A stretch of 64,000 nucleotides of DNA from a virus (lineage: Duplodnaviria; Heunggongvirae; Uroviricota; Caudoviricetes), in the IMG/VR virus record IMGVR_UViG_3300006143_000275, one strand, 5' to 3'. A program made the translations under genes and the position numbers. How positions within the stretch are numbered: position 1 is the first letter of the stretch; each line of letters opens with the position of its first letter. The notes under the pieces are model-generated. The model ran no database searches. It was not told the origin of the DNA and worked only from the letters and a program-made list of their open reading frames with translations. Below, piece by piece: positions 5,705 through 56,152 of this stretch.

Positions 5705-6360
5705 AATGTTCCTTGAAAATTTAATCTTTGCATCATGCTTATTACTAACTCGGTGAACAAAGTGTGTCAGCACTCCGAGGCGTATGGTATTTTCGGTTTG
5801 ACTTGGCGATTGTCTATGGACATCGTAGCATAGGGATACCTTTCAAGTGAGGCCGCTACTGTACAGTGATGTACGGTGGGGAGGCGGAAACCGCCAACAG
5901 AAACATATGTCGCCAAGAGTTATCGCTTCATAACGCACAGAACTTTCGGGCGCAACAATAGACGCTCCTGTGGAGAATAAGCCTTGCAGTAGCTCGGTGT
6001 GGTAGCCGAGAGATACGGAGGTAAAACCAACAATGCGCTCCTGTCTTGATGTCGGAGAAATCCGGCTATAACGAAAGTCACTGGTTAGAGTAGCCGTAGG
6101 ACAGATTGCAAAATCTTTTGAAGAAATTACTATAAAAGTAAGTATTTAATTCAAAACTTTTCTGAACGAACGGTGAAATTTGTGAGTAAACAGGCTCACG
6201 TAGGAGGTGGCGCTATGGCGCTGGGGCAAGAAGTTAGGGGTCGCTCCCCGAAGCTCAGACTTGTCTCCCTGGTGGCGGAACAATGAAGAAGATTATGGAG
6301 GTAGGGCGAAGGCCCAGTGGTGAGTATGATGGAAAGATTAAATTTTCCTTAGAAACAAAC
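5705..6360 (+). ncRNA. Large (~650 nt) structured ncRNA candidate, GOLLD/ROOL-like class; ends approximate
   Basis: No ORF of 60 aa or more; dense GC hairpins; lies between a strong promoter and the first tRNA. Confidence 0.55.
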
Positions 6361-6373
6361 AAAATCAATGTAT

Positions 6374-6449
6374 GGGGTTGTAGCTCAGTTGGGAGAGCGC
6401 CTGTTTTGCAAGCAGGAGGTCGGGAGTTCGATCCTCCCTAATTCCACCA
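6374..6449 (+). tRNA. tRNA-Ala(UGC)
   Basis: Cloverleaf, anticodon TGC, encoded CCA. Confidence 0.95.
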
Positions 6450-6563
6450 GCAAGATATGTTGGTTATGCTGACGCTTGTGTGGTTCAGTTCATTACTTAA
6501 CTACTATTCCTGTCAGAAACCTATCGGTCATGAACGAGGTTCTTCGGACGCATATCGCTAAAT

Positions 6564-6639
6564 CGGGATATAGCTCAGTTGGTAGAGCACACGACTGATA
6601 ATCGTGCGGTCAGAAGTTCAATTCTTCTCGTCCCGACCA
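6564..6639 (+). tRNA. tRNA-Ile(GAU)
   Basis: Cloverleaf, CT-GAT-AA loop, CCA. Confidence 0.95.
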
Positions 6640-6662
6640 TAGGTACTTTGACAATTCTATAT

Positions 6663-7087
6663 GGGGCCGTTTTTAGATTCGACGGGGTTTTGAGAGTGCA
6701 AGACTCACAGGTAGATGACCGCCTAAAGGCATACCTAAAAATGAAATGACAACACTGAATCTGTTGTAATGATCCACCCCGCTTTTGCTGCTTTTGTGGC
6801 TGAGAGGGCTGCTGCCTGATTGGTGGCTGGATTCCAAAACGACGCACCAGCTGGATATGGGTAAGCGTCTGCGGTTAAAGAATCATCCAGCACGTGCAGT
6901 TTCTCCTTGTGCTTCTGTAAAATAAAGACAAGGTGGTGGAGGTGTACAAACCAGTACGCCCTAGGAAAGATTTGACGGTATCGCAAGTGCCCGCCGCAAG
7001 GCATCGCTGGAAAATCGTCTATTGTGTCAGAAGGTCTTGCTCATGTAGGAATTTCGGACAGGGGTGCGAATCCCCTCGGCTCCACCA
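6663..7087 (+). ncRNA. ssrA: tmRNA
   Basis: 5' GGGGCCG...GATTCGAC, 3' CGGCTCCACCA with G3:U70 Ala identity pair; tag ORF 6748-6819 reads (A)DNTESVVMIHPAFAAFVAERAAA-stop. Confidence 0.93.
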
Positions 7088-7093
7088 TACATA

Positions 7094-7149
7094 GGGACAC
7101 TAACAGCAATTTATAATTTTTTAAGGTAAAAAAGAAAAAAAGTGTCCTG
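7094..7149 (+). repeat. ACAGCAA hairpin element, copy 1
   Basis: GGGACACT/AGTGTCCT stem, ACAGCAA just inside, inner TTTT-TTAAGGT-AAAA hairpin. Confidence 0.65.
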
Positions 7150-7150
7150 T

Positions 7151-7238
7151 GAGACGCGCACAGCAAATTTTCAAAATATTCTATCAAATGTTTTTTAAGT
7201 CCGACAAGGATAACCACCTCCATTTTTTTCGCGTCTCG
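7151..7238 (+). repeat. ACAGCAA hairpin element, copy 2
   Basis: GAGACGCG/CGCGTCTC stem with ACAGCAA just inside. Confidence 0.65.
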
Positions 7239-7250
7239 TAGCCTAAGTAT

Positions 7251-7327
7251 TGGCGGGTAGCTCAGATGGCAGTAGCATCTGACTGTTAATCAGAGGGTCG
7301 TGGGTTCGAGTCCCACCCTGCCAGCCA
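7251..7327 (+). tRNA. tRNA-Asn(GUU)
   Basis: Cloverleaf, CT-GTT-AA, CCA. Confidence 0.93.
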
Positions 7328-7403
7328 GTAGCTCAAAACATGGCAGAGAGTTTACAGGCAACTGATGTCTACATCGGTGCTGTTTTTAGAACTGCCAACA
7401 TAT

Positions 7404-7479
7404 AGCGGGATAGAGAAGCGGTCATCTCGTCATCCTCATAAGTTGGAGATCGTGGGTTCGAGTCCCACTCCCGCCACCA
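7404..7479 (+). tRNA. tRNA-Met(CAU), initiator-like body with atypical anticodon stem
   Basis: A1:C72 mismatch and A11-U24 as in fMet tRNA; anticodon stem TCATC/GTTGG. Confidence 0.85.
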
Positions 7480-7636
7480 TGCCCACCCCACAAACAGAGC
7501 GGAGACTGTAAACTGAATGGGGAATAGAAATGTTCACAATCTGGCAGTGAAAACTTTTAGCAGGTTTCAAGCGAAACCGCTGCGTCCCAACAGCAGAGAG
7601 TTGGCACCATGGCCTACGGTGTGAGTAGGTCAATAT

Positions 7637-7712
7637 GTGGGAATAGCTCAACTGGTAGAGCGCCGTCCTTCCAAGTCGGATGTTGCGGGTTCAAGTCCCG
7701 TTTCTCACTCCA
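7637..7712 (+). tRNA. tRNA-Gly(UCC)
   Basis: Cloverleaf, CT-TCC-AA, CCA. Confidence 0.95.
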
Positions 7713-7936
7713 ATCTATTATATCTGTGACTTCTCTACTTTGGCAGATATGATGATAGGTGCCGGCTCCCCTGGCATCTTTAGCAAATAGTGGAGGGATG
7801 GGAGCAGGGAAAAATACCTGTTGGTTGCCCACAAACCGTTAGTGAACGTAGAGCCAAGTGGGATATTACCAGCCATGTGGAGCTGGCCGCAGCTCCTTGC
7901 AACTGGTGACGATCAGATTGCCTTGGATGGTTTTAT

Positions 7937-8020
7937 GGGGATATGGCGGAATTGGCAGACGCACCGGATTTAGGTTCCGACGCAGTTCGCGTGTGGGTTC
8001 GACTCCCACTATCCCTACCA
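7937..8020 (+). tRNA. tRNA-Leu(UAG)
   Basis: Class II cloverleaf, TT-TAG-GT loop, CCA. Confidence 0.93.
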
Positions 8021-8022
8021 TT

Positions 8023-8085
8023 GGAGCACTAACAGCAACTTTTTTTTGGAATCAACTTTTAATTGACAACCCAAAATGTGCTCCG
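8023..8085 (+). repeat. ACAGCAA hairpin element, copy 3
   Basis: GGAGCAC/GTGCTCC stem, ACAGCAA, inner TCAA-CTTTTAA-TTGA hairpin. Confidence 0.7.
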
Positions 8086-8095
8086 TAGGAAACAC

Positions 8096-8181
8096 GCTGG
8101 TGTGTTGGAATGGCAGACGAGGCAGACTCAAAATCTGTTGCCAGAAATGGCGTGTGGGTTCAAGTCCCACCACCAGCACCA
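8096..8181 (+). tRNA. tRNA-Leu(CAA)
   Basis: Class II cloverleaf, CT-CAA-AA, CCA. Confidence 0.95.
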
Positions 8182-8295
8182 AGCCGAACAAGGGTTTATA
8201 GTAGGCGGAGGGAAAACCAGAAACCCTGACACGCTCTATTCAGAGTGGAAACAGTGATTGCATAAGGCAACGATACACGCTGTTAGGCCCGTTAT

Positions 8296-8371
8296 GATAC
8301 CGTAGCCAAGATTGGTAAGGCTCTGGGCCGCAACCCCAGGATCGTAGGTTCAAATCCTATCGGTATCTCCA
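8296..8371 (+). tRNA. tRNA-Cys(GCA)
   Basis: Cloverleaf, loop CC-GCA-AC (C33), U73, CCA. Confidence 0.9.
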
Positions 8372-8375
8372 TAAA

Positions 8376-8400
8376 GAAACCCCGCCTTTCGGCGGGGAGA
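8376..8400. terminator. Likely bidirectional terminator
   Basis: CCCCGCC-TTTC-GGCGGGG between convergent tRNA-Cys and a - strand ORF. Confidence 0.6.
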
Positions 8401-8404
8401 GAAA

Positions 8405-8602
8405 TCACAGCTCAATACCGAGCTTTTCAGCGATTTCTTCGGGAGACATATCGGATGCTTTTGCCAGGATCTGTTGGATTTTGATTGGCTTTTCAAGCTC
8501 TGCTTTTTCTGCTTGTAGCTTTGCGATCTGGGCGTCGATGTCCTTGATACGTTGTTCCGGTGTGCGTTTCCTACGAGTAACGGTTTTCTTTTCCTCAGCC
8601 AT
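8405..8602 (-). CDS. Small coiled-coil hypothetical protein, antisense within the tRNA array
   Basis: AGGAGG RBS; heptad pattern IKDIDAQIAKLQAEKAEL. Confidence 0.75.
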   Translation of the reverse strand: MAEEKKTVTRRKRTPEQRIKDIDAQIAKLQAEKAELEKPIKIQQILAKASDMSPEEIAEKLGIEL

Positions 8603-43603: not shown

Positions 43604-45628
43604 ATGCCTATTATTGGAAATTTCCCGTCTGGCAGCGGCGGCAGCGGCGGCGGTCTTGCTCTGGCCGCAGTTTCGGGCATTCAGACATTGACAGCGGCGG
43701 GAAAGGTCTATGTTAAATGGACAGATCCTGACGATCTGGTTGTTGCCGGTTCGCCTTTGGCAAGCTGGGGAGGAACCCTTTTGGTTCGCAAGGCGGGTAG
43801 TGCGCCGGTGAGCCGCAGAGACGGTACTGTCGTTTTAGACAGCAAGACCAGAAACGCTTATCAGAACAGCTATTTCTGTGATAGCGGTTTGACAGATGGT
43901 GTGGAGTATTTCTACAAGTTTTTCCCGTACACCACTTCAAGTGCATATACAGATAGCGCCGACGATGAGTTTAGTGCGACGCCCAACCCTGTGGCGGTCG
44001 GTGATGTATCTGGAATTACTTTGGCAGCGGCGGGCAATGGGAAGTTGTCTATCAAGTGGACTGATCCTGCCGCTACTGTTGTTACTGACGGTGTTACCCG
44101 TGCGACCTGGGCGTCCACGATTGTGGTCGTGAAAGAGGGAAGCTATGCTGCCTCTCCCACCGATCCTGACGCCGCATATACCCATACCAGCACAACCCGC
44201 AACGGCCACTCAAGTACCCCGCTGGTGGCGACAGGGCTGAAGAATGGAACGACTTACTATGTCTCTCTATTCCCCATGTCTACAGACGGCAAAGCCAACA
44301 CTAACGCCGCTAATCGCAAAACTGGTGTAGCGAACAGGATGACGATTGCGAATGTCCCCAGTCAAAGTGGTAGTTTGACATTCCAAGAGAACACACCGCA
44401 GTCCCCGTCTTGGAGTAACTATAACACCGCACAGCTTACACTGGGCGGTGTGACCACAGGCACCAATGCCACGAGTTACAACGCCACCTTTACTCCGAAA
44501 GATGACTATATGTGGCCTGACGGTACTACAACGGCTAAGACTGTATCGTGGAGCATTGGTAAGGCGGCTGGCAGCTTAACTTTGAGTAAGAGTTCTGTAA
44601 CCCTGAACACATCAAAGCTGAGTGACACTGTGACTGTGACTCGTCCTGGTGATGGCGCAATCTCTGCTACATCCAGCAATACCAGTGTTGCAACAGTAAG
44701 CGTATCCAGCAATATCGTGACCATTAACCATGTGAATCAGACCACCGGATCAGCAACTATTACCATCAAGGTTGCAGCGGGAAGCAATTATACTGCTCCT
44801 GCTAATAAAACGGTTGAAGTGACAGCTCAGTTTATGCCCGCAAAAGGGAATAAGCTGAACACCTATACATGGGAGCAAATCAAGCAAGTGTCTGATGCTG
44901 GTCTTGCAGCAAGCTATTGGAATGTTGGTGATACCAAAACCATTAAGCTCAATGGTAAGGCGGGGAATTATACTTTCTCTAACCTCTCCGTTGATGTTTT
45001 TATTTTGGGCTTTAATCACAATAGTGCCAAGGAGGGAACAAATCGTATCCACTTCCAAATCGGAAAAATTAGTGGGAAAGATGTGGCACTTTGCGACAGC
45101 AAATACAACAACGAGCAAACTTCCGCTGGATATTTCCACATGAATACCTCCCGCACCAACAGCGGGGGATGGAACAACAGCGCGATGCGCAAGACGCTGT
45201 TGGGCAACAGCAATAGTCCGACCAGCCCCTTGGCGAACAGCCTGATGGCGGCGCTTCCTGCCGATTTGAGAGCAGTTATGAAGTCAGTGACGAAGTATAC
45301 CGATAATACTGGCGGCGGCTCTAACACAGCAAGCTATGTGACTGCGACAACGGATTACCTGTTCCTTTTGTCTGAGTTCGAGGTTTTTGGAACCAGAAAT
45401 TACGCAAACTCAGCAGAGCAAAACTACCAGCTTCAGTATGACTACTATAAGAGTGGAAACGCTAAGGTAGCTTATAATCACAGTGCGAACAGCACTGCTG
45501 TGTGGTGGTGGTTGCGTTCCCCCTCTTACAACAACTCCAACGCTTTCTGTCGTGTGAGCGGCACCGGCGGCATCAGCGACGACTATGCTTCCTGGTCGGC
45601 GGGGGTGCGCCCCGGCTTTTCTGTCTAA
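43604..45628 (+). CDS. DGR target: receptor-binding tail protein with FN3/Ig-like repeats and a C-terminal C-type-lectin-fold (DUF6273-like) domain
   Basis: FLLSEFEVFG and WWWLRSP motifs; VR at 3' end. Confidence 0.85.
   Translation: MPIIGNFPSGSGGSGGGLALAAVSGIQTLTAAGKVYVKWTDPDDLVVAGSPLASWGGTLLVRKAGSAPVSRRDGTVVLDSKTRNAYQNSYFCDSGLTDGVEYFYKFFPYTTSSAYTDSADDEFSATPNPVAVGDVSGITLAAAGNGKLSIKWTDPAATVVTDGVTRATWASTIVVVKEGSYAASPTDPDAAYTHTSTTRNGHSSTPLVATGLKNGTTYYVSLFPMSTDGKANTNAANRKTGVANRMTIANVPSQSGSLTFQENTPQSPSWSNYNTAQLTLGGVTTGTNATSYNATFTPKDDYMWPDGTTTAKTVSWSIGKAAGSLTLSKSSVTLNTSKLSDTVTVTRPGDGAISATSSNTSVATVSVSSNIVTINHVNQTTGSATITIKVAAGSNYTAPANKTVEVTAQFMPAKGNKLNTYTWEQIKQVSDAGLAASYWNVGDTKTIKLNGKAGNYTFSNLSVDVFILGFNHNSAKEGTNRIHFQIGKISGKDVALCDSKYNNEQTSAGYFHMNTSRTNSGGWNNSAMRKTLLGNSNSPTSPLANSLMAALPADLRAVMKSVTKYTDNTGGGSNTASYVTATTDYLFLLSEFEVFGTRNYANSAEQNYQLQYDYYKSGNAKVAYNHSANSTAVWWWLRSPSYNNSNAFCRVSGTGGISDDYASWSAGVRPGFSV
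45493..45620 (+). repeat. DGR variable repeat (VR)
   Basis: 128-bp ungapped match to TR; 18 of 19 mismatches fall at TR adenines. Confidence 0.95.
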
Positions 45629-45654
45629 TCTGCCGCAGTGTATCGGGTCTATAT

Positions 45655-45676
45655 CCCGCCCACGTCAGTGGGCGGG
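45655..45676 (+). promoter_or_regulatory. DGR target-recognition hairpin/cruciform
   Basis: CCCGCCCAC-GTCA-GTGGGCGGG, GC stem with 4-nt loop, just downstream of VR. Confidence 0.7.
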
Positions 45677-45869
45677 TGCTCCGATAGAGGCAGAAAGTTT
45701 CGGTACGGAAAACAATGTCGGCGCGAAGCGCCGACGCGATTTTTTGAAAAATGGGCTTTTTTGCAGTTTTCCAAAAAAGTGCTATCACTTGACAGGTTAA
45801 AGACTGCATACAAAGCATGAACGTCGCCCTATAATATACCTTATACCAGTTAGATGGAGGTACGATAAT

Positions 45870-46076
45870 ATGGCGACAACCAAACGAGTGTTTACCCTGC
45901 GTCTGACTGATGACGTGTTTGATAAGATTGGTACGCTTGCGGCGAATGAGCACCGATCCATGACAAATTACATCGAGTATGTCTTAATCAAGCACCTGGA
46001 ACAAGTTGAGCAGGAGCGCGGGGTGATAGATACTAAAAAAGCAGTAGAAGAGGAGAAAAACAGTGTCGGTACTTAA
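45870..46076 (+). CDS. Ribbon-helix-helix (Arc/CopG-like) DNA-binding protein
   Basis: KRVFTLRL beta strand, then RSMTNYIEYVL; GGAGG RBS. Confidence 0.8.
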   Translation: MATTKRVFTLRLTDDVFDKIGTLAANEHRSMTNYIEYVLIKHLEQVEQERGVIDTKKAVEEEKNSVGT

Positions 46077-46527
46077 AGCAAAGCGTACCACAAGCAAGGC
46101 GGAGTTTGTCAATACGGCAAACCAACTTTATGTGGAAACGCTAAATTTTCTTACAAGGCTGTCTGCAAGATATTCCAGATTGATTGCTGAGGATATCGCA
46201 CATCTGGCCGGTGGAGTGGTGGATCAAGCTGAAATGGCAAACAGTATCTACCCCTCAGACGACCAGAGAAAGACATTGCGCAAGGCACACCTGCTGGAAG
46301 CAAGGGCTTCTTTGAAAGCCTTGGATGTGCGGCTTACGCATTGCTATCTTCTTATGATGCAGAACCCAGAAGGATGCTTTACGAACAGTAAAGGCGTTCA
46401 GTTGAAATCTGCGGATGCGGTTGAGAAACTTGATCGTATGGCGGAAAGTTTAGGGCTGCTGATCGACAAGGAAGATGAACTTCTCAGAGGTGTTACTAAG
46501 GCACTGGCACAAACTAAAAAGCAGTAA
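46063..46527 (+). CDS. avd: DGR accessory variability determinant (Avd-like four-helix bundle)
   Basis: MSVLK start, helical and basic; directly upstream of TR and RT. Confidence 0.75.
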   Translation: MSVLKAKRTTSKAEFVNTANQLYVETLNFLTRLSARYSRLIAEDIAHLAGGVVDQAEMANSIYPSDDQRKTLRKAHLLEARASLKALDVRLTHCYLLMMQNPEGCFTNSKGVQLKSADAVEKLDRMAESLGLLIDKEDELLRGVTKALAQTKKQ

Positions 46528-46560
46528 TCGGTCTATGGGTGTATTTCTGTAAATGAGTCA

Positions 46561-46688
46561 CACTGCTGTGTGGTGGTGGTTGCGTTCCCCCTATTACAAC
46601 AACAACAACAATTTCTGTAATGTGAACAACAACGGCAACATCAACAACAACAATGCTTCCTGGTCGGCGGGTGTGCGCCCCGGATTTT
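46561..46688 (+). repeat. DGR template repeat (TR)
   Basis: 14 AAC/AAT codons and 33 adenines; lies between avd and RT. Confidence 0.95.
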
Positions 46689-46905
46689 GCAATGTGCGAG
46701 GTCGAATGGTAGTAGCTTCGGCGAAGGACGACCTTTGCAAAAGGAGAAATACTTCCCTGGTGAAAGCCTAAAACGGCCCTTTGACGACCATGCACGGACG
46801 CTACTTGCATGGCGGGGGATTGCGTTAACCCCGTTTCATGTGTATGGTCAACGTAGTATTAGACACGCACCTACAAGACATCTATGCGGAGGGCGAATAA
46901 AAAAT

Positions 46906-48081
46906 ATGACAGGCGAAGAGCGCCGAGAGGCGCGTTATCAGCGCCGTCAGGCACGACGGCAGGCCAACAGGCAAGAGCGGAGTGATGCGGTAGGATCACT
47001 TAACGAAATCTACAACTACCACGATATGTTCTTCTATGGGAAGGAGTGCTGTAAGGGCGTTCGTTGGAAGCAGAGCACCCAAAACTTTGAAATGCACTTG
47101 CTTTCTGGAACGGCAAAGAGGCGTCAGATGGTGGTCAGCGGAAAGTGGAAACCACAGCCTTGTTCTCACTTTATGCTCTGTGAGCGAGGGAAGGTTCGCC
47201 CCATCGACGCCCCTCATATCGTAGACCGGCAAATTCATAAGGTGGAAAGCAACAAGATCCTGATTCCACTGTATGAGCCAAGCATGATAGTTGATAATGC
47301 AGCCAGTCAGAAAAACAAGGGTTTGCATTGGCAATTCCGTCGGCTTAAAGAACAGCTTGCGTGGCACTACCGGCGATATGGGCGTGAGGGTGCAGTGTTT
47401 CTTATGGATTTGAAGAAATTCTTTCCTAACGCCAATCGTCGGTTGATTTACCAACGGCACAGTAAATTGATGCTTAACCCAGAGGTTAGAGCGTTTGCGG
47501 ACTACATCGTTACTACCGCCCCAGCTACTGCTCCGGGGCGGGGTATGCCATTAGGCGTGGAACCGAGCCAACAAGAGATGGTGGCGTTGCCCAGTGCCAT
47601 TGATAATTATATCAAGTGTCAGTTGGGAATCCACTGTGCCGGCCATTATATGGATGATTATTATATCATCCTTCCTGATACCGAGGAATTGAAAAAGATT
47701 GCTCGTGGAATCGTAAAAATGATGGAGTCATATGGTATTCAAGTCAATCGGCGTAAATGCAAAATCGTTCCACTTGCCAGTCCGAAAGGATTCCGTTTCT
47801 GTAAAGCAAGGTTCACTCTGCTGGAAACGGGTAAAATCAAGGTCAACGGTAATCGGTGCGGGATGAAGAGCGCCCGCCGTAAGTTGAAGTTGTTCCATCG
47901 TGAATATTTGCAAGGCAAACGGACACTTGCTGAGATAGATCAGTTCATGGAGTGCCAAACGGCGTACTATAAGAACTATAACGATCACGGTAGGCTGTTA
48001 CGACTGCGGAGACTGCATTATGCAATCTTTGAAAAATATAGAAAGTTGGAACAACAAAAACAGCTTATGCAAACAGCTTAA
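46906..48081 (+). CDS. DGR reverse transcriptase
   Basis: MDLKKFF, GMPLG and HYMDD motifs; GGAGG RBS before ATG at 46906. Confidence 0.93.
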   Translation: MTGEERREARYQRRQARRQANRQERSDAVGSLNEIYNYHDMFFYGKECCKGVRWKQSTQNFEMHLLSGTAKRRQMVVSGKWKPQPCSHFMLCERGKVRPIDAPHIVDRQIHKVESNKILIPLYEPSMIVDNAASQKNKGLHWQFRRLKEQLAWHYRRYGREGAVFLMDLKKFFPNANRRLIYQRHSKLMLNPEVRAFADYIVTTAPATAPGRGMPLGVEPSQQEMVALPSAIDNYIKCQLGIHCAGHYMDDYYIILPDTEELKKIARGIVKMMESYGIQVNRRKCKIVPLASPKGFRFCKARFTLLETGKIKVNGNRCGMKSARRKLKLFHREYLQGKRTLAEIDQFMECQTAYYKNYNDHGRLLRLRRLHYAIFEKYRKLEQQKQLMQTA

Positions 48082-50102: not shown

Positions 50103-50120
50103 ATATAGGAGGTGAGGGAT

Positions 50121-51146
50121 ATGGGACGAAAGACAAAGCAAAACAAAATCACTTCGCCTGAGTTGATTGCCCAGATCAATCCAAAGAACATTCGGCTGAT
50201 GAATGACTTCCTGGACTATCTGAGGTCGGTTGGCAAGGCGGAGTCTACTGTAAAAGCGTATACCAGTGACCTATACATCTTCTTTGTGTGGGTGCTCCAA
50301 AATGCTGACAACAAATATTTCCCTGAGATTTCTAAACGAGATATTGTTGCCTATCAAAACTGGCTGCTGCGGAACAACGAAAACTCACCTGCGCGTGTGC
50401 GCCGGCTGAAAGCAACGCTGTCTTCTCTCAGCAACTATATTGAAGCCATTTTGGATGACGAGCTACCCAACTTCCGTTCAATCGTTCGGAAGATTGAGAA
50501 CCCGATCAATGAGCCTACCAGGGAGAAGACGGTGCTGACCGATGAGCAGGCCGACACACTCCAGGACTACCTTACAGAACACGGGCAGTATGAGAAAGCC
50601 TGCTGCTTTGCGTTGGCGCGATATTCGGGACGGCGCAAATCTGAGCTGGTGCGGTTCAAGGTATCGTACTTTGATGACGAAAACATTATCTACGGTTCAC
50701 TTTACAAAACGCCTGAGAAAATCAGGACAAAAGGGCGTGGTGTCAACGGTAAAATGCTGACTTGTTACGTGCTCTCAAAGCCATTTAAGCCGTATCTGGA
50801 TCGGTGGCTGGAAAAGCGGCAGGAGTTGGGAATTGAAAGTGAGTGGTTGTTCCCCAATAAGGAAGATTTTACACAACCGCTTCCGATTTCCACACTGAAC
50901 AGTTGGGCGGAGACATTCTCCGCTATCCTGGAAATCCCTGTGTATTGGCACAGTCTACGGCATTTCTTTACAACCTCGCTTGCCAAAGCCAATCTGCCGG
51001 ACTCTGTAATCAAGACCATTATCGGCTGGGACAGTCTTGAAATGGTTGCGACATACAAGGACATCGACGATGAGGAAGAAATCGGAAAGTATTTTGCTGA
51101 TGGTGAGATCATTGCCCAGAAGCAGACGGGGCTTTCTGATCTGTAA
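50121..51146 (+). CDS. XerC/D-like tyrosine recombinase
   Basis: SGRRKSE (Arg), HSLRH, GW and C-terminal Tyr; N-terminal SAM-like domain. Confidence 0.88.
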   Translation: MGRKTKQNKITSPELIAQINPKNIRLMNDFLDYLRSVGKAESTVKAYTSDLYIFFVWVLQNADNKYFPEISKRDIVAYQNWLLRNNENSPARVRRLKATLSSLSNYIEAILDDELPNFRSIVRKIENPINEPTREKTVLTDEQADTLQDYLTEHGQYEKACCFALARYSGRRKSELVRFKVSYFDDENIIYGSLYKTPEKIRTKGRGVNGKMLTCYVLSKPFKPYLDRWLEKRQELGIESEWLFPNKEDFTQPLPISTLNSWAETFSAILEIPVYWHSLRHFFTTSLAKANLPDSVIKTIIGWDSLEMVATYKDIDDEEEIGKYFADGEIIAQKQTGLSDL

Positions 51147-51157
51147 GGGAGGAATAT

Positions 51158-52783
51158 ATGAATGAGCAAGTAATTCACGACTACTTTCGTGCGAAAGGGT
51201 TGAACGAGTACGGGATCGCCGGTTTGATGGGCAATTTGTTTGCTGAGAGCGGCCTTAACCCCAAGAATTTGCAGAACAGTTATGAAAATGCTCTCGGTAT
51301 GAACGACAACGCCTATGTTGCCGCTGTGGATAATGGCACCTACACAAACTTCGTGCAGGACAAGGCGGGTTTTGGACTCGCACAATGGACTTATTGGAGT
51401 CGGAAGCAAGCCCTTCTGAACTTTGCAAAGGCTTCTGGCAAATCTATCGGCGATCTGAATATGCAGTTGGACTTTCTTTGGAAAGAGCTGTCTGAAAGTT
51501 ACCCCAGTGTTTTGGCGGTGCTGAAGACGGCTCTTTCCGTGTTTGAGGCGTCCAACGCTGTATTGCTGAATTATGAGAGGCCGGCAAATCAAAGTGTGGG
51601 CGTTCAGAAAAAGCGGGCTGAGTATGGACAGAGGTACTATGACCAGTTCGCTATGACCATTCAGAAAGGAGGGAGCGCTATGAAATATTCAGAGCGCAAC
51701 AAGCCCCTGGTATGTATGCAGACCCATAGCACCTGCTATCAGGGCACTCGGAAAATGGATGTCAAAGGCGTTTTGTGGCACAGCACTGGCGCGAACAATC
51801 CTACATTGCGGCGCTATGTGCAGCCTGGTGCCGATGATCCGAACTATGCCAATCTGATGGCACTGCTTGGCAAGAACAACAACGGGAACGACTGGAACCA
51901 CACTTCTGTGCAGGCAGGCTTGAACTGCTGGATTGGCAAGCTGGCAGATGGCAGTGTTACTACCGTCCAGACTATGCCGTGGAACTATCGGCCTTGGGGC
52001 TGTGGTTCGGGAAGCAAAGGCTCTTGCAACAACGGCTGGATTCAGTTTGAGATCTGTGAAGATGGTCTGGCAGACGCCGACTACTTCAACAAGGTCTACA
52101 AGGAGGCGTGCGAGATTACCGCCTACCTTTGTAAGCTCTACAACATTGATCCGCATGGGACGGTTCTGGTCAACGGCGTGAAAGTGCCCACCATTTTGTG
52201 CCATGCTGACAGTTGCAGGCTGGAGCTTGGCTCTAACCACGGCGATGTGCTTCACTGGTTCCCGAAGTTTGGGAAGTCAATGGAGACAGCGAGGAATGAT
52301 GTGGCGGCACTGCTGGGTTCTGCACCGGCGTCAAAGCCAACAAGTGTGAGTTACCAGGCAAAGGTTATTGCTCAAGACGGATTGAACTGCCGAGATAATC
52401 CTAACGGTTCAATTATCATGACATATCCGGCGGGCACTCTGCTCAGTATTTCTCAGGAGAACAACGGCTGGGGCTTTACTGGTACAGGCTGGGTGTCTTT
52501 GGATTGGGTAGAAAAAATCAAAACGGATAATGGAATGGAGGATGAGGATATGGATATGACACGTTTCAAAGAGCTTTTCAGTGAAATGCGTAAGGATCTG
52601 CAAGACAACGATAGTGGCGCATACAGCAAGGAAGCGCGTGAGTGGGCATTGGCTACTGGCCTAATCGCTGGCAATGGCACCCAGATTAACGGAGAACCCA
52701 ACTGTATGTGGCAGGACTTCCTGACTCGTGAACAGCTGGTGACGGTTCTCTACCGTTTTGCCCAGATGATGGGTAAGGCGTAA
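51158..52783 (+). CDS. Modular lysin: phage tail lysozyme + amidase_2 + SH3 + SLH-like domains
   Basis: GLMGNLFAESG/GLAQWT; WHSTG, EICE, CHAD, NHGD; GWGFTGTGWVSL; LTREQLVTVLYR. Confidence 0.88.
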   Translation: MNEQVIHDYFRAKGLNEYGIAGLMGNLFAESGLNPKNLQNSYENALGMNDNAYVAAVDNGTYTNFVQDKAGFGLAQWTYWSRKQALLNFAKASGKSIGDLNMQLDFLWKELSESYPSVLAVLKTALSVFEASNAVLLNYERPANQSVGVQKKRAEYGQRYYDQFAMTIQKGGSAMKYSERNKPLVCMQTHSTCYQGTRKMDVKGVLWHSTGANNPTLRRYVQPGADDPNYANLMALLGKNNNGNDWNHTSVQAGLNCWIGKLADGSVTTVQTMPWNYRPWGCGSGSKGSCNNGWIQFEICEDGLADADYFNKVYKEACEITAYLCKLYNIDPHGTVLVNGVKVPTILCHADSCRLELGSNHGDVLHWFPKFGKSMETARNDVAALLGSAPASKPTSVSYQAKVIAQDGLNCRDNPNGSIIMTYPAGTLLSISQENNGWGFTGTGWVSLDWVEKIKTDNGMEDEDMDMTRFKELFSEMRKDLQDNDSGAYSKEAREWALATGLIAGNGTQINGEPNCMWQDFLTREQLVTVLYRFAQMMGKA

Positions 52784-52794
52784 GGGGTGGCAGT

Positions 52795-53151
52795 ATGGTT
52801 GTTTTCGGACAAAACGGAAAGCGTGTTGCAAGCCATTATCAGCCCGTGAAAACAGCCAAGAAAAAGGATTATTCCAAGCGGTTGATTTCTGATATTCGAC
52901 TGTTGCTCTGGGTGGTAACACTCGGAGGAATTTTCCTTGCATTCTATTGTATCCGTAAAGGGTATGTCGGCTCTCTGCCGTGGCTATCGGCTATGGTGGG
53001 GTTGCCGTGGACTGCACATGGGACGGTGTGCGCTTTCTACTTGAATATGGCGAAGTCAGATCACAGCGAGGGTGGAATTACCTTTGAGTCTGCAAAAGCA
53101 AACAATTTTGAAACATACGATGTCGGCAGTGATGATAGTCCAGCGATTTGA
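52795..53151 (+). CDS. Two-TM membrane protein, holin-like
   Basis: Two hydrophobic segments; follows lysin. Confidence 0.55.
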   Translation: MVVFGQNGKRVASHYQPVKTAKKKDYSKRLISDIRLLLWVVTLGGIFLAFYCIRKGYVGSLPWLSAMVGLPWTAHGTVCAFYLNMAKSDHSEGGITFESAKANNFETYDVGSDDSPAI

Positions 53152-53165
53152 TAAGGAGAAGAAAA

Positions 53166-53459
53166 ATGGTTCAACTTTTTATTTCCCAACCTATGCGGGG
53201 TAGATCTGATGAAGAGATTGCCGTAGAGCGGGAGTATGCGAAACTCGCCGCTGAAAGGATTTTGAAAGATGATGTTGAGGTAATTGACAGCTTCTTTCAA
53301 GATGGCGATAAAAAGCCCTTGGAGTATTTGGGTGAAAGCCTAAAGCTCTTAGCGGTTGCTGATTGGGTATGGTTTTGTGATGGATGGGAGCAGGCCAGAG
53401 GATGTAAGATTGAAAACCTATGTGCCCGTGAATATGGCATTCCCATCATTCATGCGTAA
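53166..53459 (+). CDS. DUF4406-like (nucleoside deoxyribosyltransferase-fold) protein
   Basis: LFISQPM...WEQARGCKIE motif. Confidence 0.7.
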   Translation: MVQLFISQPMRGRSDEEIAVEREYAKLAAERILKDDVEVIDSFFQDGDKKPLEYLGESLKLLAVADWVWFCDGWEQARGCKIENLCAREYGIPIIHA

Positions 53460-53477
53460 AAAGGAGGATGAATTATC

Positions 53478-53810
53478 ATGGATACTGAGTGGGTAAGACT
53501 GATCGTTTCTGTTCTTTCCGGGCTTGCCGCAACCATTCCGCTGGTTGTTCAGCTGGTGAAATATGTGCAGCGTGCAATTAAGGAGAAGAACTGGCCGCAG
53601 GTTGTGAACCTGGTTATGGGCTACATGGAGCGTGCGGAGGCAATGTTCGAGAAAGGTGCCGACCGAAAGGAGTGGGTGCTTGCTATGGTTAAGGCTTCTG
53701 CCGATACCATCAAGTACGAAATCGACATGGACGAAATCTCTGCGCTGATTGATAGCCTGTGCGATATGAGCAAGGTGGTCAACAACAGTGCGGAGGTGAA
53801 AACAAAATGA
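53478..53810 (+). CDS. Holin (LL-H-like)
   Basis: N-terminal TM; GADRKEWV...ISALID pattern. Confidence 0.7.
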   Translation: MDTEWVRLIVSVLSGLAATIPLVVQLVKYVQRAIKEKNWPQVVNLVMGYMERAEAMFEKGADRKEWVLAMVKASADTIKYEIDMDEISALIDSLCDMSKVVNNSAEVKTK

Positions 53811-54250
53811 CTCTAAAAGACATTTTCCTAAGTGGTAGCGGCGCTCTGGTTGTCATTCTGATGCTGATTCAGATTACGCCAATTAAGGTTGATCCGTTTG
53901 GCGCTCTTGCTCGGTGGATTGGTCGTGCGCTGAATGGTGATGTGCTGAAGAAGCTGGACAAGATGGAGAGTGCTCAGGCAGAAACACGAGAGCGGCTGGA
54001 TGAGCATATCCGCATTGACAATGAACGCAATGCGGATACCCATAGAGTGCAGATTCTTCGGTTTAATCGGGAGTTGTTGCAGGAGGCTCCGCATACCCAG
54101 GAGGATTTTATCGAAGCTCTGTCAGAGATTGACTTTTATGAGCACTATTGTAAGAGCCACCCTGAGTATGAAAATAACCGAGCGGTGCTGGCGATTGAGA
54201 ATATCAAGCGTGCCTATATGGAGTGGCTGGAGAAGCACGAGGGAACGTAA
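53807..54250 (+). CDS. Lysis-module membrane-anchored protein
   Basis: N-terminal TM; IKVDPFGALARWIGR motif; ATGA overlap. Confidence 0.65.
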   Translation: MTLKDIFLSGSGALVVILMLIQITPIKVDPFGALARWIGRALNGDVLKKLDKMESAQAETRERLDEHIRIDNERNADTHRVQILRFNRELLQEAPHTQEDFIEALSEIDFYEHYCKSHPEYENNRAVLAIENIKRAYMEWLEKHEGT

Positions 54251-54518
54251 GCAGAGGGTAGCCCGGATTTGAGCTTCAGGCTACCCAAGAAACATGAGAT
54301 GTAAAGAATAGTATAGTAATACTACAGATTTGGAGCTGATCGAATATCGGTTCTTTTGCCGGGGAGTTGGCTTTTTATGCCAGCTTCCTATTTTTTTGCA
54401 TTTGTGGTATTTTGAGAAATTCTGGGAATAAGCCGGGGCGTAGGTATCAATCACGATACTCACGCCCTTTTTTTTGTCCCGCAAGAAATTTGAAACCCAC
54501 ATCGAGCTTTTCTTCAAA

Positions 54519-54796
54519 TGGTGTAAACTTGGTGTAAATCTGAAATGGTACTCCCGGCATACCAGAACATTTTACACAAGATATGGTATGTTTTGACGAT
54601 TGGCGCACTGTATTTTGCGCTTTTCTGGTGTTGCTGAGAAAATCCTTGTTATATCCGGAGGATAAAAATTTTATGGTGCATATCTTCTCATAAGTTCTTA
54701 GAACGGCTCTGTTCAAGCAATTCTTCCGAATTATCTCACGCAATTTCTCATAACTTCTTAGAAAAACTGCGTGAGATGGTGTAGGTTTTGGTGTAC
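54519..54796. other. attP-like region with paired integrase arm-type repeats
   Basis: TGGTGTAAA x2 (54519, 54530) and TGGTGTA x2 (54777, 54789) flank an AT-rich core, immediately 3' of the integrase. Confidence 0.55.
54685..54763. repeat. 19-bp direct repeat TTCTCATAA(G/C)TTCTTAGAA
   Basis: Copies at 54685-54703 and 54745-54763; the second sits inside the IR ATCTCACGCA/TGCGTGAGAT. Confidence 0.8.
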
Positions 54797-54799
54797 GAC

Positions 54800-56071
54800 T
54801 CAGCCAATCTTAATCTTCCCCTCCAGGTTCCCAAAGCTGGCCTTTTTCTTCTCCATCGTGGCTTCATTATAGATATCCATGGTGGTAGAAATATTGGCGT
54901 GCCCCATGATTTCCTGGATGATTTTCAAGTTGGTTTCGTTCTCACAGAAGCGGGTGCAGAAGGTGTGCCTCAAATTATGGACGGAGAAGTGCGGGAGCAA
55001 GATCGGCTCCCGCCGCTGCTTTTTAGCGGCAGCAGTTTCCTCAGCATTGCAGTCACGGATGATGTGCTTGATGATCTGGTTGATAGATGTACTCGTGTAG
55101 AGATTACCTTTCTTCGTTTGGAAGATAAAGCCAGTGTAGCCGTCTACTTCATTTCGAGTAAAGCCCTCTGCCATCTGGCGAAGCCGCTCATTTAGCAGAG
55201 CAGATTTGACTTCACGGAGCATGGGAATTACCCTTGTACCAGCTTCGGTCTTGGGTGTAGACACGAGGAACCTCATCCTCTCTTCATTCTCAGGCCTACA
55301 AAAAGCCATGTTGTGGTTGATCGAGATAAGGTTTTCTTCAAAGTCACAGTCGTCCCAGCGCAGGCCAATAACCTCACCCACACGACAGCCAGTACCCAGG
55401 AATACAGTAAACAGGTTGAGGAAACCAGCATACTTCGGAGAGCTACGAATGAAATCAACGAACATCTGTTGCTGAACTTCGGTCAGAGCGTGACGCTTAT
55501 CCTGTCCCCAGCCGTTCTGCTTTTTCAACTCGGCATATACCTGATAGGCGGGATTTGCTCGGATGTAACCGTCACGTACAGCCAATGTGAAGATAGGATG
55601 GAGGACGGTATTGACAGCATGAACGGTATTGGGCTTAAATCCTTTCTCATAGAACAGGGAGAGATAGAACTGCTTGACATCACTGTACTTGATAGAGCTG
55701 ATACTTCGACTTCCCAGCTCGTCCTTGATGTAGTTATTGTACACTTGGATATAGCCAGAGCGGGTAGTAGGCTTCAGCTCTTTCTTCATTGCCATGTACT
55801 TCCGAAAGAAGTCGTCCAGAGTTTTCTTACTGGCTACAAAACTTTCAATACCGTCATCGGTATCACGAGTCAACTGCTTTTCCAGATCGCGTAAAGGCGC
55901 ACCAGCCTTTTTGCCTACTGGCAACTTATCAGTATCTACCAGCCGCCAGCTGTAAATAGTCCGTCTCACCCCTCCTGCATCGTTATATCGGTACATATAC
56001 ATCCCATCGGATCGCTGGGATTCACCGACTTTGAGAAGCCGGCCTTTTGAGTCTCTTCTTTTCGAGGCCAT
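54800..56071 (-). CDS. int: Tyrosine integrase, Tn916/lambda-like
   Basis: N-terminal arm-binding domain RRDSKGRLLKVGESQRSDG; TGCRVGE, HNLRHT, MGH...TMDIY. Confidence 0.93.
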   Translation of the reverse strand: MASKRRDSKGRLLKVGESQRSDGMYMYRYNDAGGVRRTIYSWRLVDTDKLPVGKKAGAPLRDLEKQLTRDTDDGIESFVASKKTLDDFFRKYMAMKKELKPTTRSGYIQVYNNYIKDELGSRSISSIKYSDVKQFYLSLFYEKGFKPNTVHAVNTVLHPIFTLAVRDGYIRANPAYQVYAELKKQNGWGQDKRHALTEVQQQMFVDFIRSSPKYAGFLNLFTVFLGTGCRVGEVIGLRWDDCDFEENLISINHNMAFCRPENEERMRFLVSTPKTEAGTRVIPMLREVKSALLNERLRQMAEGFTRNEVDGYTGFIFQTKKGNLYTSTSINQIIKHIIRDCNAEETAAAKKQRREPILLPHFSVHNLRHTFCTRFCENETNLKIIQEIMGHANISTTMDIYNEATMEKKKASFGNLEGKIKIG

Positions 56072-56152
56072 TGCAAACTCCTTTCTGCCTGAAGAAGAAA
56101 CTCGATGTGGTACTTGCATTATACCACACCGAGTATCCAATCTCAAGCGCAA

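What the first reader, a model, noticed from the sequence alone, without database searches (positions are those of the whole stretch)
7094..8085. Three ACAGCAA hairpin elements carrying anticodon-loop mimics: possible tRNA decoys
Seen: copies at 7094-7149, 7151-7238 and 8023-8085 each have a 7-8 bp closing stem of different sequence (natural covariation), ACAGCAA 1-2 nt inside the 5' arm and an A/T-rich interior. Copy 3 holds TCAA-CTTTTAA-TTGA, whose 7-nt loop is identical to the tRNA-Lys(UUU) anticodon loop at 10731-10737. Copy 1 holds TTTT-TTAAGGT-AAAA, one base from the tRNA-Leu loop TTTAGGT; copy 2 is less clear (TTTAAGT). Known: PrrC and PARIS AriB cleave tRNA-Lys(UUU) at or near the anticodon. 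Inference: minimal anticodon stem-loop decoys that absorb host anticodon nucleases or modification enzymes.
Basis: partly seen in the sequence, partly recalled or inferred. Interest (0 to 1): 0.78.

Follow-up and report, generated by a model that had tools for sequence, protein, structure and literature searches.

The report
Phage handle RNAs with anticodon mimics
The three hairpins are genes for small RNAs of a widespread family I found in no paper or RNA catalogue: a fixed "handle" (short helix plus ACAGCAA) carries variable pieces of tRNA, and the handle travels with a phage protein shaped like the RNA-binding autoantigen Ro60, so the RNAs are probably that protein's partners rather than free-standing decoys.

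Summary
Three same-strand hairpins lie in a prophage tRNA array: 7094-7149, 7150-7238 and 8022-8085. Each has a 7-8 bp closing helix of different sequence, then ACAGCAA, then an A/U-rich interior.

They belong to a large family. A model built from 44 members finds 130 copies in 52 fetched loci. The helix is 99.9% paired, with compensatory changes at all 7 pairs. Copies share the strand of neighbouring tRNAs (399 to 0).

Anticodon-loop-like hairpins occur in 40 of 121 minimal members, against 8.5 in shuffles. Copy 3 is a conserved tRNA-Lys(UUU) anticodon-arm mimic. Copy 1 is a weak mimic and copy 2 is not one.

The handle also encloses permuted tRNA bodies and interrupts whole tRNA genes. It co-occurs with DUF2828 genes: 54 of 93 loci with the element, against 4 of 142 without. 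The DUF2828 protein of a close relative folds like Ro60.

The window itself has no such gene. Three relatives carry it about 36-38 kb beyond the window start.

Most likely these are Y-RNA-like partner RNAs of a Ro60-like protein. A decoy role is possible but untested. Earlier agents of this scan reached the same reading on other genomes. I found no publication.

The parts
7094..7149 (+). Handle RNA copy 1. Helix 7094-7100 with 7142-7148, UA, ACAGCAA 7103-7109, A/U-rich cargo with a weak Leu-like hairpin (loop UUAAGGU), conserved 3' G at 7149. It starts 6 nt after the tmRNA 3' end (7087).
   Evidence: model R1 52.2 bits, but it is a seed member; Rfam RF01414 30.9 bits, below the 41.5 cut-off
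7150..7238 (+). Handle RNA copy 2. Helix 7151-7158 with 7230-7237, ACAGCAA 7160-7166, long 71-nt cargo with two small hairpins and no clear tRNA-like part, 3' G at 7238. tRNA-Asn starts 13 nt downstream (7251).
   Evidence: (z = -4.4). The model matches only the ACAGCAA region locally, 15 bits. Positional counterparts exist in L052, L153 and L108.
8022..8085 (+). Handle RNA copy 3. Helix 8023-8029 with 8078-8084, plus a possible U8022-G8085 wobble pair. UA, ACAGCAA 8032-8038. Cargo is an outer helix UUUUGG 8044-8049 with CCAAAA 8071-8076, enclosing the anticodon-arm mimic UCAA-CUUUUAA-UUGA at 8052-8066. It lies between tRNA-Leu(UAG), which ends at 8020, and tRNA-Leu(CAA), which starts at 8096.
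   Evidence: (z = -3.6); R1 40.9 bits, E 1.2e-6, not in the seed; cargo conserved in 6 elements with different handles
6374..10775 (+). Context: array of 19 tRNA genes, all on the + strand. It is preceded by ROOL RNA (5725-6334) and contains a phage tmRNA (6663-7087). The three handle RNAs would be co-transcribed with it.

Best explanation
The three hairpins are genes for small non-coding RNAs of one modular family. The invariant part is a handle: a 7-8 bp helix joining the RNA's two ends, two nucleotides (usually UA), single-stranded ACAGCAA on the 5' side, an A-rich run (often ...AAAU) before the 3' strand, and a G after it. The variable part is a cargo built from tRNA pieces.

Steps that are inferred:
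1. They are transcribed with the tRNA array.
2. They are released when RNase P and the 3'-end nucleases trim the flanking tRNAs and tmRNA.
3. The handle is the docking site of a phage-encoded Ro60-like ring protein (Pfam DUF2828 + DUF7788, a TROVE-like plus vWA-like architecture), much as Y RNAs dock on Ro60.
4. The cargo (in copy 3 a mimic of the tRNA-Lys(UUU) anticodon arm) then gives the particle its specificity. It could recruit or occupy proteins that recognise tRNA parts. These might be repair or quality-control enzymes as in bacterial Ro60/Y RNA systems, or host tRNA-cutting defence enzymes.

What is shown: the RNA family, its structure, its strand, the tRNA-like nature of its cargo, its linkage to the protein gene, and the protein's Ro60-like fold.

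What is inferred: binding, processing and the downstream function. In this window the protein gene itself is not present. It is expected outside the window from the layout of three relatives.
For: Family and structure:
- An exact pattern scan found 76 viral loci.
- Model R1 finds 130 copies in 52 loci.
- Across 120 distinct sequences the helix is 99.9% paired. All 7 pairs show compensatory changes: 157 double-change cells against 32 in shuffles.

Orientation: same strand as nearby tRNAs 399 to 0, and as DUF2828 genes 109 to 3. The nearest upstream element ends within about 100 nt of the DUF2828 open frame in 33 of the 43 loci where this could be measured.

Linkage:
- An iterated profile search from L233's DUF2828 protein (Pfam 144 and 152 bits) finds a homolog in 58 fetched loci.
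- Under a stricter definition of the element, 54 of 93 loci with an element hold one, against 4 of 142 without; Fisher p = 6e-23.

Relatives of this phage:
- The syntenic pieces of G003 and G006 are 69-95% identical to the window in DNA, and the long blocks are 69-82% identical.
- G003, G005 and G006 each have a DUF2828 gene. In G003 and G006 it lies about 36-38 kb beyond the window start.
- Each gene is preceded by several ACAGCAA-bearing RNAs, seven sites in G003, the last just before its start codon.

Fold: the AlphaFold2 model of the G003 protein has pLDDT 84. Its top 13 PDB matches are all Ro60/TROVE, including Thermus phage phiLo Ro60, Xenopus, Deinococcus and human. They align over the full length with E from 7e-10 to 3e-5.

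Cargo is tRNA-derived:
- Anticodon-loop enrichment.
- A permuted tRNA-Asp inside a handle at L150:1745-1872.
- 23 whole tRNA-like genes with the handle inserted as a capped hairpin.

Precedent, from papers: Ro60 binds Y RNAs, and bacterial and phage YrlA RNAs carry a tRNA-like domain (PMC4201824). Thermus phage phiLo Ro60 binds two phage-encoded Y-like RNAs (PMC12135203).
Against: - No DUF2828 homolog lies in the 64-kb window, so the partner is inferred from relatives.
- 39 of 93 element-bearing loci show no DUF2828 within the fetched stretch of at most 15 kb. L030, a giant-virus-like contig, is one where none was found.
- The handle does not resemble the known Ro60-binding helix. The Rfam YrlA model does not match any element.
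- A profile of the protein family finds no solved Ro60 by sequence. The Ro60 likeness rests on a predicted structure with TM 0.4-0.6.
- Binding has not been shown by any experiment or calculation here.
- About a third of the tRNA-embedded forms would give perfect tRNAs if the handle were cut out. A pure docking-site model does not need this.
Confidence: 0.6

Rival explanations
1. Free-standing anticodon stem-loop decoys. The hairpins act on their own as minimal tRNA mimics that soak up host anticodon nucleases or tRNA-modifying enzymes. The closing helix only stabilises them.
For: - Anticodon-loop-like inner hairpins are enriched 4- to 8-fold over shuffles.
- Lys(UUU) is the commonest mimicked anticodon: 6 of 27 strict cases, with Asn, Met/Ile, Thr, Ser and Cys also present.
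- The Lys-type cargo keeps an invariant CUUUUAA loop while its stems and handles change.
- From general knowledge, tRNA-Lys(UUU) is the target of PrrC and of PARIS AriB.
Against: - Only copy 3 of the three is a clear mimic, and about two thirds of minimal members have no canonical loop.
- The most conserved part is not the mimic. It is the unpaired ACAGCAA with the helix, which a simple stabilising clamp would not require.
- The same handle carries T arms, acceptor hairpins and whole tRNA bodies.
- Linkage to a Ro60-fold protein gene is tight.
- The mimic stems are 3-5 bp, A/U-rich and unlike the real tRNA stems.

This rival overlaps the best explanation if the decoy acts as part of the particle.
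Confidence: 0.15
2. A new protein-dependent splicing or circularisation signal for tRNAs. The helix plus ACAGCAA marks sequence to be cut out. It would act as an intron when capped by a loop inside a tRNA gene, and as the joined ends of permuted tRNA precursors when open. The window's minimal copies would be relics, or would give tiny circular RNAs.
For: - In 23 tRNA-like genes the handle sits between the D arm and the T arm.
- In about 8 of them, excision restores a perfect 5-bp anticodon stem and a canonical loop: Lys UUU, Thr UGU, Asn GUU, amber CUA, opal UCA. The junction falls in the 5' strand of the anticodon stem.
- L150:1745-1872 becomes a good tRNA-Asp(GUC) if its ends are joined in the same way.
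- The embedded and the enclosing forms are exact circular permutations of each other.
Against: - For 12 of the 23 embedded forms no single excision gives a canonical anticodon arm. A few others give only odd anticodons or arrangements (AGG, AAA, and one tRNA read only with a long extra arm).
- Distances from the helix to the putative junctions vary: 5-14 nt on the 5' side and 2-15 nt on the 3' side.
- Some enclosed tRNA bodies have no room for an anticodon arm (L233).
- The minimal forms, which are the majority, have nothing to splice.
- The linked gene has an RNA-binding ring fold, not that of an endonuclease or ligase.
Confidence: 0.12
3. Passive features of the tRNA operon or of the DNA: transcription terminators or promoters, RNase processing spacers, or a miniature inverted-repeat mobile element.
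For: - They lie in tRNA spacers, 2-13 nt from tRNA or tmRNA ends.
- They have terminal inverted repeats and A/T-rich interiors.
- They occur in very different viruses, which fits mobility.
Against: - No U-run follows the helix.
- The strand is absolutely fixed relative to tRNAs, 399 to 0.
- The arms differ between copies but always pair, which is covariation rather than conserved transposon ends.
- The conserved motif is unpaired and on one strand only.
- Many copies lie outside tRNA arrays, directly before a DUF2828 gene.
Confidence: 0.05

Closest known systems
Y RNAs bound by Ro60/Rsr, especially the tRNA-mimicking YrlA of bacteria and phages (Rfam RF02553; Chen et al. 2014, PMC4201824) and Yrl1/Yrl2 of Thermus phage phiLo (PMC12135203)
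   Same: - Small RNAs whose 5' and 3' ends pair into a helix, with a second, variable module that imitates tRNA parts.
- Encoded next to, and on the strand of, a gene for a ring protein with the Ro60 fold.
- One family member, L150:1745-1872, has the YrlA order of parts: T arm, closed acceptor hairpin, D arm.
   Different: - The docking helix and its conserved motif are different: ACAGCAA with an A-rich strand, instead of the bulged helix with CGAA described for Y RNAs.
- The YrlA model matches none of the elements.
- The protein is DUF2828/DUF7788. Its likeness to Ro60 was detected here only by fold, not by sequence profile.
- The cargo is often just an anticodon arm.
- Many copies per genome are scattered through tRNA arrays far from the protein gene, as in this window.
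Class I RNAs of dictyostelid social amoebae (Rfam RF01414; Kjellin et al. 2021, PMC7919456)
   Same: - Length about 42-65 nt, with a 6-7 bp terminal helix that covaries.
- A conserved unpaired motif directly after the 5' strand. Class I has CCUUACAGCAA; its near-invariant U3, C6, C9, A10 and A11 all match (C)ACUAACAGCAA here.
- A variable A/U-rich remainder, and a conserved G just after the 3' strand (Class I ends in CUGU; here copy 1 ends ...CCUGU).
- Copy 1 is the only Rfam hit for these elements: 30.9 bits, E 0.0016-0.008.
   Different: - The score is below the family cut-off of 41.5. Copies 2 and 3, and the elements in the 11 other loci searched, give no RF01414 match.
- The host is a bacteriophage, not an amoeba, and there is no DUSE promoter.
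- The published direct binder of Class I RNA is an RRM protein (Rnp1A/CIBP).
- Whether the pulled-down protein of unknown function, DDB_G0281243, is Ro60-like was not testable here.
- No Dictyostelium protein appeared among the 120 best DUF2828 homologs listed in each of two searches.
Circularly permuted and intron-containing tRNA genes of Cyanidioschyzon merolae and archaea (bulge-helix-bulge processing)
   Same: The same clamp helix appears both as an insert within tRNA genes and as the joined ends of back-to-front tRNA genes.
   Different: - No bulge-helix-bulge geometry was seen by eye, and the distances to the junctions vary.
- Most embedded forms do not give a canonical tRNA after excision.
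- The window's three copies hold no tRNA body at all.

Membership tests
Y RNA / YrlA (RF02553) | Matches the family covariance model: Ro60-binding helix with its conserved bulged motif | tested here: not met
   Rfam scans at E up to 10 over 7000-8200 and at E up to 0.5 over 11 related loci give no YrlA hit on any element. The only weak YrlA hits overlap ordinary tRNAs.
Y RNA / YrlA (RF02553) | Encoded with, and bound by, a Ro60 (TROVE + vWA) protein | tested here: inconclusive
   Linkage to a Ro60-fold DUF2828 protein is strong across the family and present in three relatives. No such gene lies in this window, and binding was not testable.
Y RNA / YrlA (RF02553) | tRNA-like effector domain (T arm, D arm, acceptor-like hairpin) | tested here: not met
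   The window copies contain at most an anticodon-arm mimic (copy 3). ARAGORN and the Rfam tRNA model do not call them. Other family members do have such domains.
Dictyostelium Class I RNA (RF01414) | Score at or above the Rfam gathering cut-off (41.5 bits) | tested here: not met
   Copy 1 scores 30.9 bits. Copies 2 and 3, and elements in the other loci searched, are not reported.
Dictyostelium Class I RNA (RF01414) | Short covarying terminal helix, with the conserved ...UNACAGCAA motif directly 3' of its 5' strand, and total length about 42-65 nt | tested here: met
   The helix is 7 bp with compensatory changes. The motif aligns with all five near-invariant Class I positions. Copies 1 and 3 are 56 and 64 nt; copy 2 is longer at 89 nt.
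Dictyostelium Class I RNA (RF01414) | Upstream DUSE promoter; restricted to Dictyostelia | tested here: not met
   The elements lie inside a bacterial prophage tRNA operon, 2-13 nt from neighbouring RNA genes.
tRNA / tRNA-derived anticodon stem-loop mimic | 7-nt loop with Y32-U33-NNN-R37 on a stem | tested here: met
   Copy 3 has CUUUUAA on a 4-bp stem, identical to the tRNA-Lys loop at 10731-10737. Copy 1 has UUAAGGU on an A-U stem, which is weak. Copy 2 has none. Family-wide enrichment is 40 of 121 against 8.5.
Spliced or permuted tRNA genes (bulge-helix-bulge type) | Excision or end-joining at the motif yields a canonical tRNA | tested here: not met
   The window copies contain no tRNA body. 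In the wider family about 8 of 23 embedded forms give a tRNA with an ordinary anticodon, and one permuted form does.

The most novel reading that the evidence does not exclude
The helix-plus-ACAGCAA handle is the recognition element of a second, unrecognised branch of Ro60-type particles (DUF2828 proteins). This branch would span bacteriophages, giant viruses and eukaryotes. The orphan Class I RNAs of Dictyostelium would be its eukaryotic members. In phages the particle would display anticodon arms and other tRNA parts as baits, intercepting host tRNA-cutting defence enzymes or steering tRNA repair.
Probability: 0.2. Interest if true: 0.9.

Novelty: new variant of a known kind. Interest (0 to 1): 0.72.

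Why it matters
Ro60 and its Y RNAs are known from animals, some bacteria and a few phages. What their variable RNA modules do is still largely open.

Here a much larger family turns up, which I found in no paper of the library searched and in no Rfam family. It has a fixed handle and a changeable cargo that copies defined parts of tRNA. It is spread through phage tRNA arrays, prophages of gut Bacillota and other bacteria, and giant-virus-like contigs.

If the handle docks on the Ro60-like DUF2828 protein, three things follow:
- A large family of proteins of unknown function gets an RNA partner.
- Much of the "spacer" in phage tRNA islands is explained.
- A testable link opens between phage tRNA biology, tRNA-targeting host defences and RNA quality control.

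The match to the Class I RNAs of Dictyostelium, whose mechanism is unknown, would make that old question testable as well.

Tried and rejected
- **Rfam.** No family reaches its cut-off on the elements. The only weak hit is RF01414 on copy 1.
- **Published phage records.** The phage collection gave only tRNA-level matches.
- **Whole genome of the window.** It is not held. The nearest genome, G001, has neither the array nor DUF2828. The nearest virus record, G002, lies inside the window.
- **Sigma-54 promoter reading of GGCAC-N5-GC.** Rejected by eye: the spacing is two bases short, and most copies have GACAC.
- **Integron attC, known small ribozymes and intrinsic terminators.** Considered and rejected on sequence. 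No Rfam hits and no U-run.
- **Intron or permuted-tRNA reading.** I held it as the leading idea until the excision test. For 12 of 23 embedded forms no excision gives a canonical anticodon arm, and the protein linkage then pointed elsewhere.
- **Anticodon in the cap loop of embedded hairpins.** No consistent pattern by eye.
- **Pairing partner for ACAGCAA.** Its complement does not occur in the window's ROOL RNA.
- **Sequence-profile search of the DUF2828 family against solved structures.** Nothing significant.
- **Literature.** Searches for ACAGCAA with tRNA and phage, permuted tRNA with bacteriophage, DUF2828, and DDB_G0281243 found no description of this family.
- **A Dictyostelium DUF2828 protein.** Two homolog searches listed none among their best 120. 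This does not show absence.
- **The bacterial-genome pattern scan.** 43 hits, of which about 24 look genuine (closing helix of 7 bp or more). The rest have 5-6 bp helices, and most of those have G+C-richer interiors, as expected by chance.
Full report
**What is there.** The window is a temperate phage or prophage. It encodes a terminase, a portal protein and an exonuclease, and a tail-type protein, a lysin, two integrases and a reverse transcriptase. Between the exonuclease gene and the terminase gene lies an RNA island on the + strand. It holds ROOL RNA (5725-6334, 348 bits), a tmRNA (6663-7087) and 19 tRNA genes (6374-10775).

The three hairpins sit in this island:
- Copy 1 (7094-7149) starts 6 nt after the tmRNA.
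- Copy 2 (7150-7238) follows copy 1 directly and ends 13 nt before tRNA-Asn.
- Copy 3 (8022-8085) fills the gap between tRNA-Leu(UAG) and tRNA-Leu(CAA).

Each has a closing helix of 7-8 bp with a different sequence. ACAGCAA follows one or two bases after the 5' strand. The interior is 70-85% A+T, and a G follows the 3' strand. All three fold better than shuffles on the + strand (z = -2.1, -4.4, -3.6). No other ACAGCAA site in the 64 kb has these properties.

**It is a large family.** An exact scan of viral contigs for GACAC-UAACAGCAA, a gap of 25-55 nt, then GUGUC gave 76 loci. The same scan of bacterial genomes gave 43 hits. About 24 of them have the extended helix, mostly from Bacillota, with single cases from several other phyla.

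Around these hits I found 233 distinct helix-plus-ACAGCAA candidates. An alignment of 44 of them shows invariant ACAGCA, a near-invariant last A, and a near-invariant G after the helix. A covariance model built on it recovers 130 copies in 52 loci at E < 0.01.

In those hits (120 distinct sequences) the helix is 99.9% paired. All seven pairs show changes on both sides, with 157 such cells against 32 +/- 4 in shuffles (seed alone). My seed was chosen for perfect pairing. The percentage paired therefore leans that way, but the number and variety of compensatory pairs does not follow from that choice.

In the window the model scores copy 1 at 52 bits (a seed member) and copy 3 at 40.9 bits (E about 1e-6, not in the seed). 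Copy 2 matches only locally because of its 71-nt interior. Nothing else matches.

The elements always share the strand of nearby tRNAs, 399 to 0. This argues for an RNA and against a DNA repeat.

**The cargo is made of tRNA parts.** Among 121 non-redundant minimal elements, a 7-nt loop reading Y-U-NNN-R-N on a stem of at least 4 bp occurs in 40. Dinucleotide shuffles give 8.5 +/- 2.7, with a maximum of 17 in 300. The stricter Y-U-NNN-A-A occurs in 27, against 3.5 +/- 1.7.

Among the 27 strict cases the mimicked anticodons are UUU (6), GUU (3), CAU (3), then UUA, UGU, UGA and GCA (2 each) and others.

Copy 3 belongs to a Lys-type subfamily. Six elements from different phages with different handle helices keep an invariant CUUUUAA loop, inner stems that differ between members, and an outer UGG/CCA helix. 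Its 7-nt loop equals that of the window's tRNA-Lys, but the stems differ. Copy 1 is a weak Leu-like mimic. By eye, its counterpart in L052 has a Pro-like UUUGGGU loop. Copy 2 has no such feature.

The same handle appears in two further layouts:
- It encloses larger tRNA parts. L150:1745-1872 holds a T arm, an acceptor stem closed by a loop, and a D arm. This is a circularly permuted tRNA-Asp(GUC) if the ends are joined. In L233, handles enclosing short anticodon-like hairpins alternate with handles enclosing tRNA bodies that have no anticodon arm.
- It sits as a capped hairpin followed by ACAGCAA inside 23 otherwise complete tRNA-like genes, between the D arm and the T arm.

**Is it an intron?** I first favoured a new splicing or circularisation signal. 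Excising the insert restores a perfect anticodon arm with an ordinary anticodon in about 8 of the 23 embedded genes: Lys, Thr, Asn, and amber and opal suppressors. The junction falls inside the 5' strand of the anticodon stem.

For 12 of the 23, however, no single excision gives a canonical arm. A few more give only odd anticodons or arrangements. The distances from helix to junction vary widely. The majority, minimal form has nothing to splice. I keep this as a rival at about 0.12.

**The linked protein.** Directly downstream of four handle RNAs in L233 is a 493-aa protein with Pfam DUF2828 and DUF7788. An iterated profile search from it over all open frames of all fetched loci finds a homolog in 58 loci.

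With a stricter definition of the element, 54 of 93 loci with an element hold one, against 4 of 142 without (Fisher p = 6e-23). The loci without an element are mostly chance hits of my first, loose pattern scan, and they serve as a control. The element and the gene share a strand, 109 to 3. In 33 of the 43 loci where it could be measured, the nearest upstream element ends within about 100 nt of the open frame.

The window has no such gene. In G003 and G006 the gene lies about 36-38 kb beyond the point that corresponds to window position 1. G005, a third relative, also carries the gene. Their identity to the window is:
- G003: the syntenic pieces are 70-95% identical to the window in DNA, and the long blocks 76-82%.
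- G006, a prophage in an Oscillospiraceae genome: 69-95%.
- G005: not measured.

In all three the gene is preceded by its own run of ACAGCAA RNAs, seven sites in G003.

I modelled the G003 protein from a 31-sequence alignment (pLDDT 84, pTM 0.78). The 13 best matches among solved structures are all Ro60/TROVE proteins: Thermus phage phiLo, Xenopus, Deinococcus and human. They align over the full length, with E from 7e-10 to 3e-5 and TM 0.4-0.6. Isolated vWA domains follow. By sequence profile alone no solved Ro60 is found.

Homologs are numerous: 899 and 1890 proteins at E up to 1e-5 among the candidates scored in two searches. They include mimiviruses, tupanviruses and tardigrades. Some UniRef entries already call them TROVE-domain proteins.

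**Most likely mechanism.** Known Ro60 proteins bind Y RNAs through a terminal helix. Bacterial and phage YrlA RNAs carry a tRNA-like second module (PMC4201824). Thermus phage phiLo Ro60 binds two phage-encoded Y-like RNAs and assembles with host PNPase (PMC12135203). Ro/TROVE proteins in jumbo phages have been discussed as part of RNA-repair systems with a tRNA-like partner (PMC7824862).

The present family has the same logic with different parts. It has a new handle, a divergent Ro60-fold protein, and cargo ranging from a bare anticodon arm to a whole permuted tRNA.

I therefore read the three window elements as partner RNAs of the phage's Ro60-like protein. They would be made from the tRNA operon transcript and freed by the processing of their neighbours.

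The structure, strand, cargo statistics, gene linkage and protein fold are shown. Binding, processing and the downstream role are inferred. The decoy idea remains possible as the function of the particle. It is untested.

**Comparison with known families.** The elements are not members of YrlA (no model match). They are not members of Rfam's Dictyostelium Class I family either: 30.9 bits against a cut-off of 41.5 for copy 1, and no hit for the others.

The likeness to Class I RNAs is nevertheless close in design. Both have a short covarying terminal helix, the motif ...U.ACAGCAA directly after its 5' strand with all five near-invariant Class I positions matching, a variable A/U-rich body, a conserved G just beyond the 3' strand, and a length of about 60 nt.

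Class I RNAs were reported as unique to dictyostelids (PMC7919456). One of four proteins pulled down with a Class I RNA, DDB_G0281243, has no known function. I could not test whether it is Ro60-like.

**Earlier notes of this scan.** After I had found the family, its three layouts, the permuted tRNA and the Class I hit, I consulted the scan's earlier notes. Many agents had met the same handle on other genomes and linked it to a Ro60-like DUF2828 protein and to Class I RNAs. That lead redirected me from the intron reading. I then tested the linkage, the relatives' gene layout and the fold myself. The literature searches found no published description.

**Verdict.** These are real small-RNA genes of a widespread family I could not find described. 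They are best seen as a new variant of the Ro60/Y-RNA theme, and copy 3 is a genuine tRNA-Lys anticodon-arm mimic. Confidence in the partner-RNA reading is about 0.6.

Noticed in passing
window 5725-6334 (+): Full-length ROOL RNA (Rfam RF03087, 348.5 bits), directly upstream of the tRNA/tmRNA island. The relative L052 has one in the same place, and L184 has a GOLLD RNA about 560 nt downstream of a handle RNA.
   Followed up: no
window 6663-7087 (+): Phage-encoded tmRNA (RF00023, 66.5 bits). ARAGORN did not report it. Copy 1 begins 6 nt after its CCA end.
   Followed up: no
window 43604-48081 (+): Reverse transcriptase (RVT_1) at 46687-48081, downstream of a 674-aa protein with a C-terminal DUF6273 domain. 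This could be a diversity-generating retroelement.
   Followed up: no
window 50112-56152: Two tyrosine integrases (50112-51146 +, 54800-56152 -) and a switch of GC skew near 54-56 kb. This is probably the prophage end, with host DNA beyond.
   Followed up: no
window 7480-7636, 7713-7936, 8182-8295, 10401-10699: Spacers of 110-300 nt between tRNA genes that hold no called RNA and look G+C-richer than the handle RNAs. They may hold further structured RNAs.
   Followed up: no
L030:1-900 (-) and L030:9227-9540: A contig labelled as a giant-virus MAG carries the same handle RNA about 8 nt upstream of each of three tRNA-Leu genes. It also has a 116-nt tRNA-Ile(UAU) with a eukaryote-type intron, and a group I intron. 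No DUF2828 was found in the 11 kb held.
   Followed up: partly
L233:1756-2110 (+): Upstream of a DUF2828 gene, handles enclosing short anticodon-like hairpins (UCA, GUU) alternate with handles enclosing tRNA 'bodies' (T arm plus acceptor hairpin, with or without a D arm) that have no room for an anticodon arm. It looks as if the two halves of a tRNA were displayed separately.
   Followed up: partly
L138:1455-1578, L178:1882-2004, L166:4170-4279: tRNA-like genes with the handle inserted would carry suppressor anticodons after excision: CUA (amber) and UCA (opal).
   Followed up: partly
L249:1380-1440 (G003), L250 and L248: In the window's relatives, the last ACAGCAA site lies inside the 5' leader of the DUF2828 gene, about 50 nt before its start codon. 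The protein might regulate its own message through the same handle.
   Followed up: no
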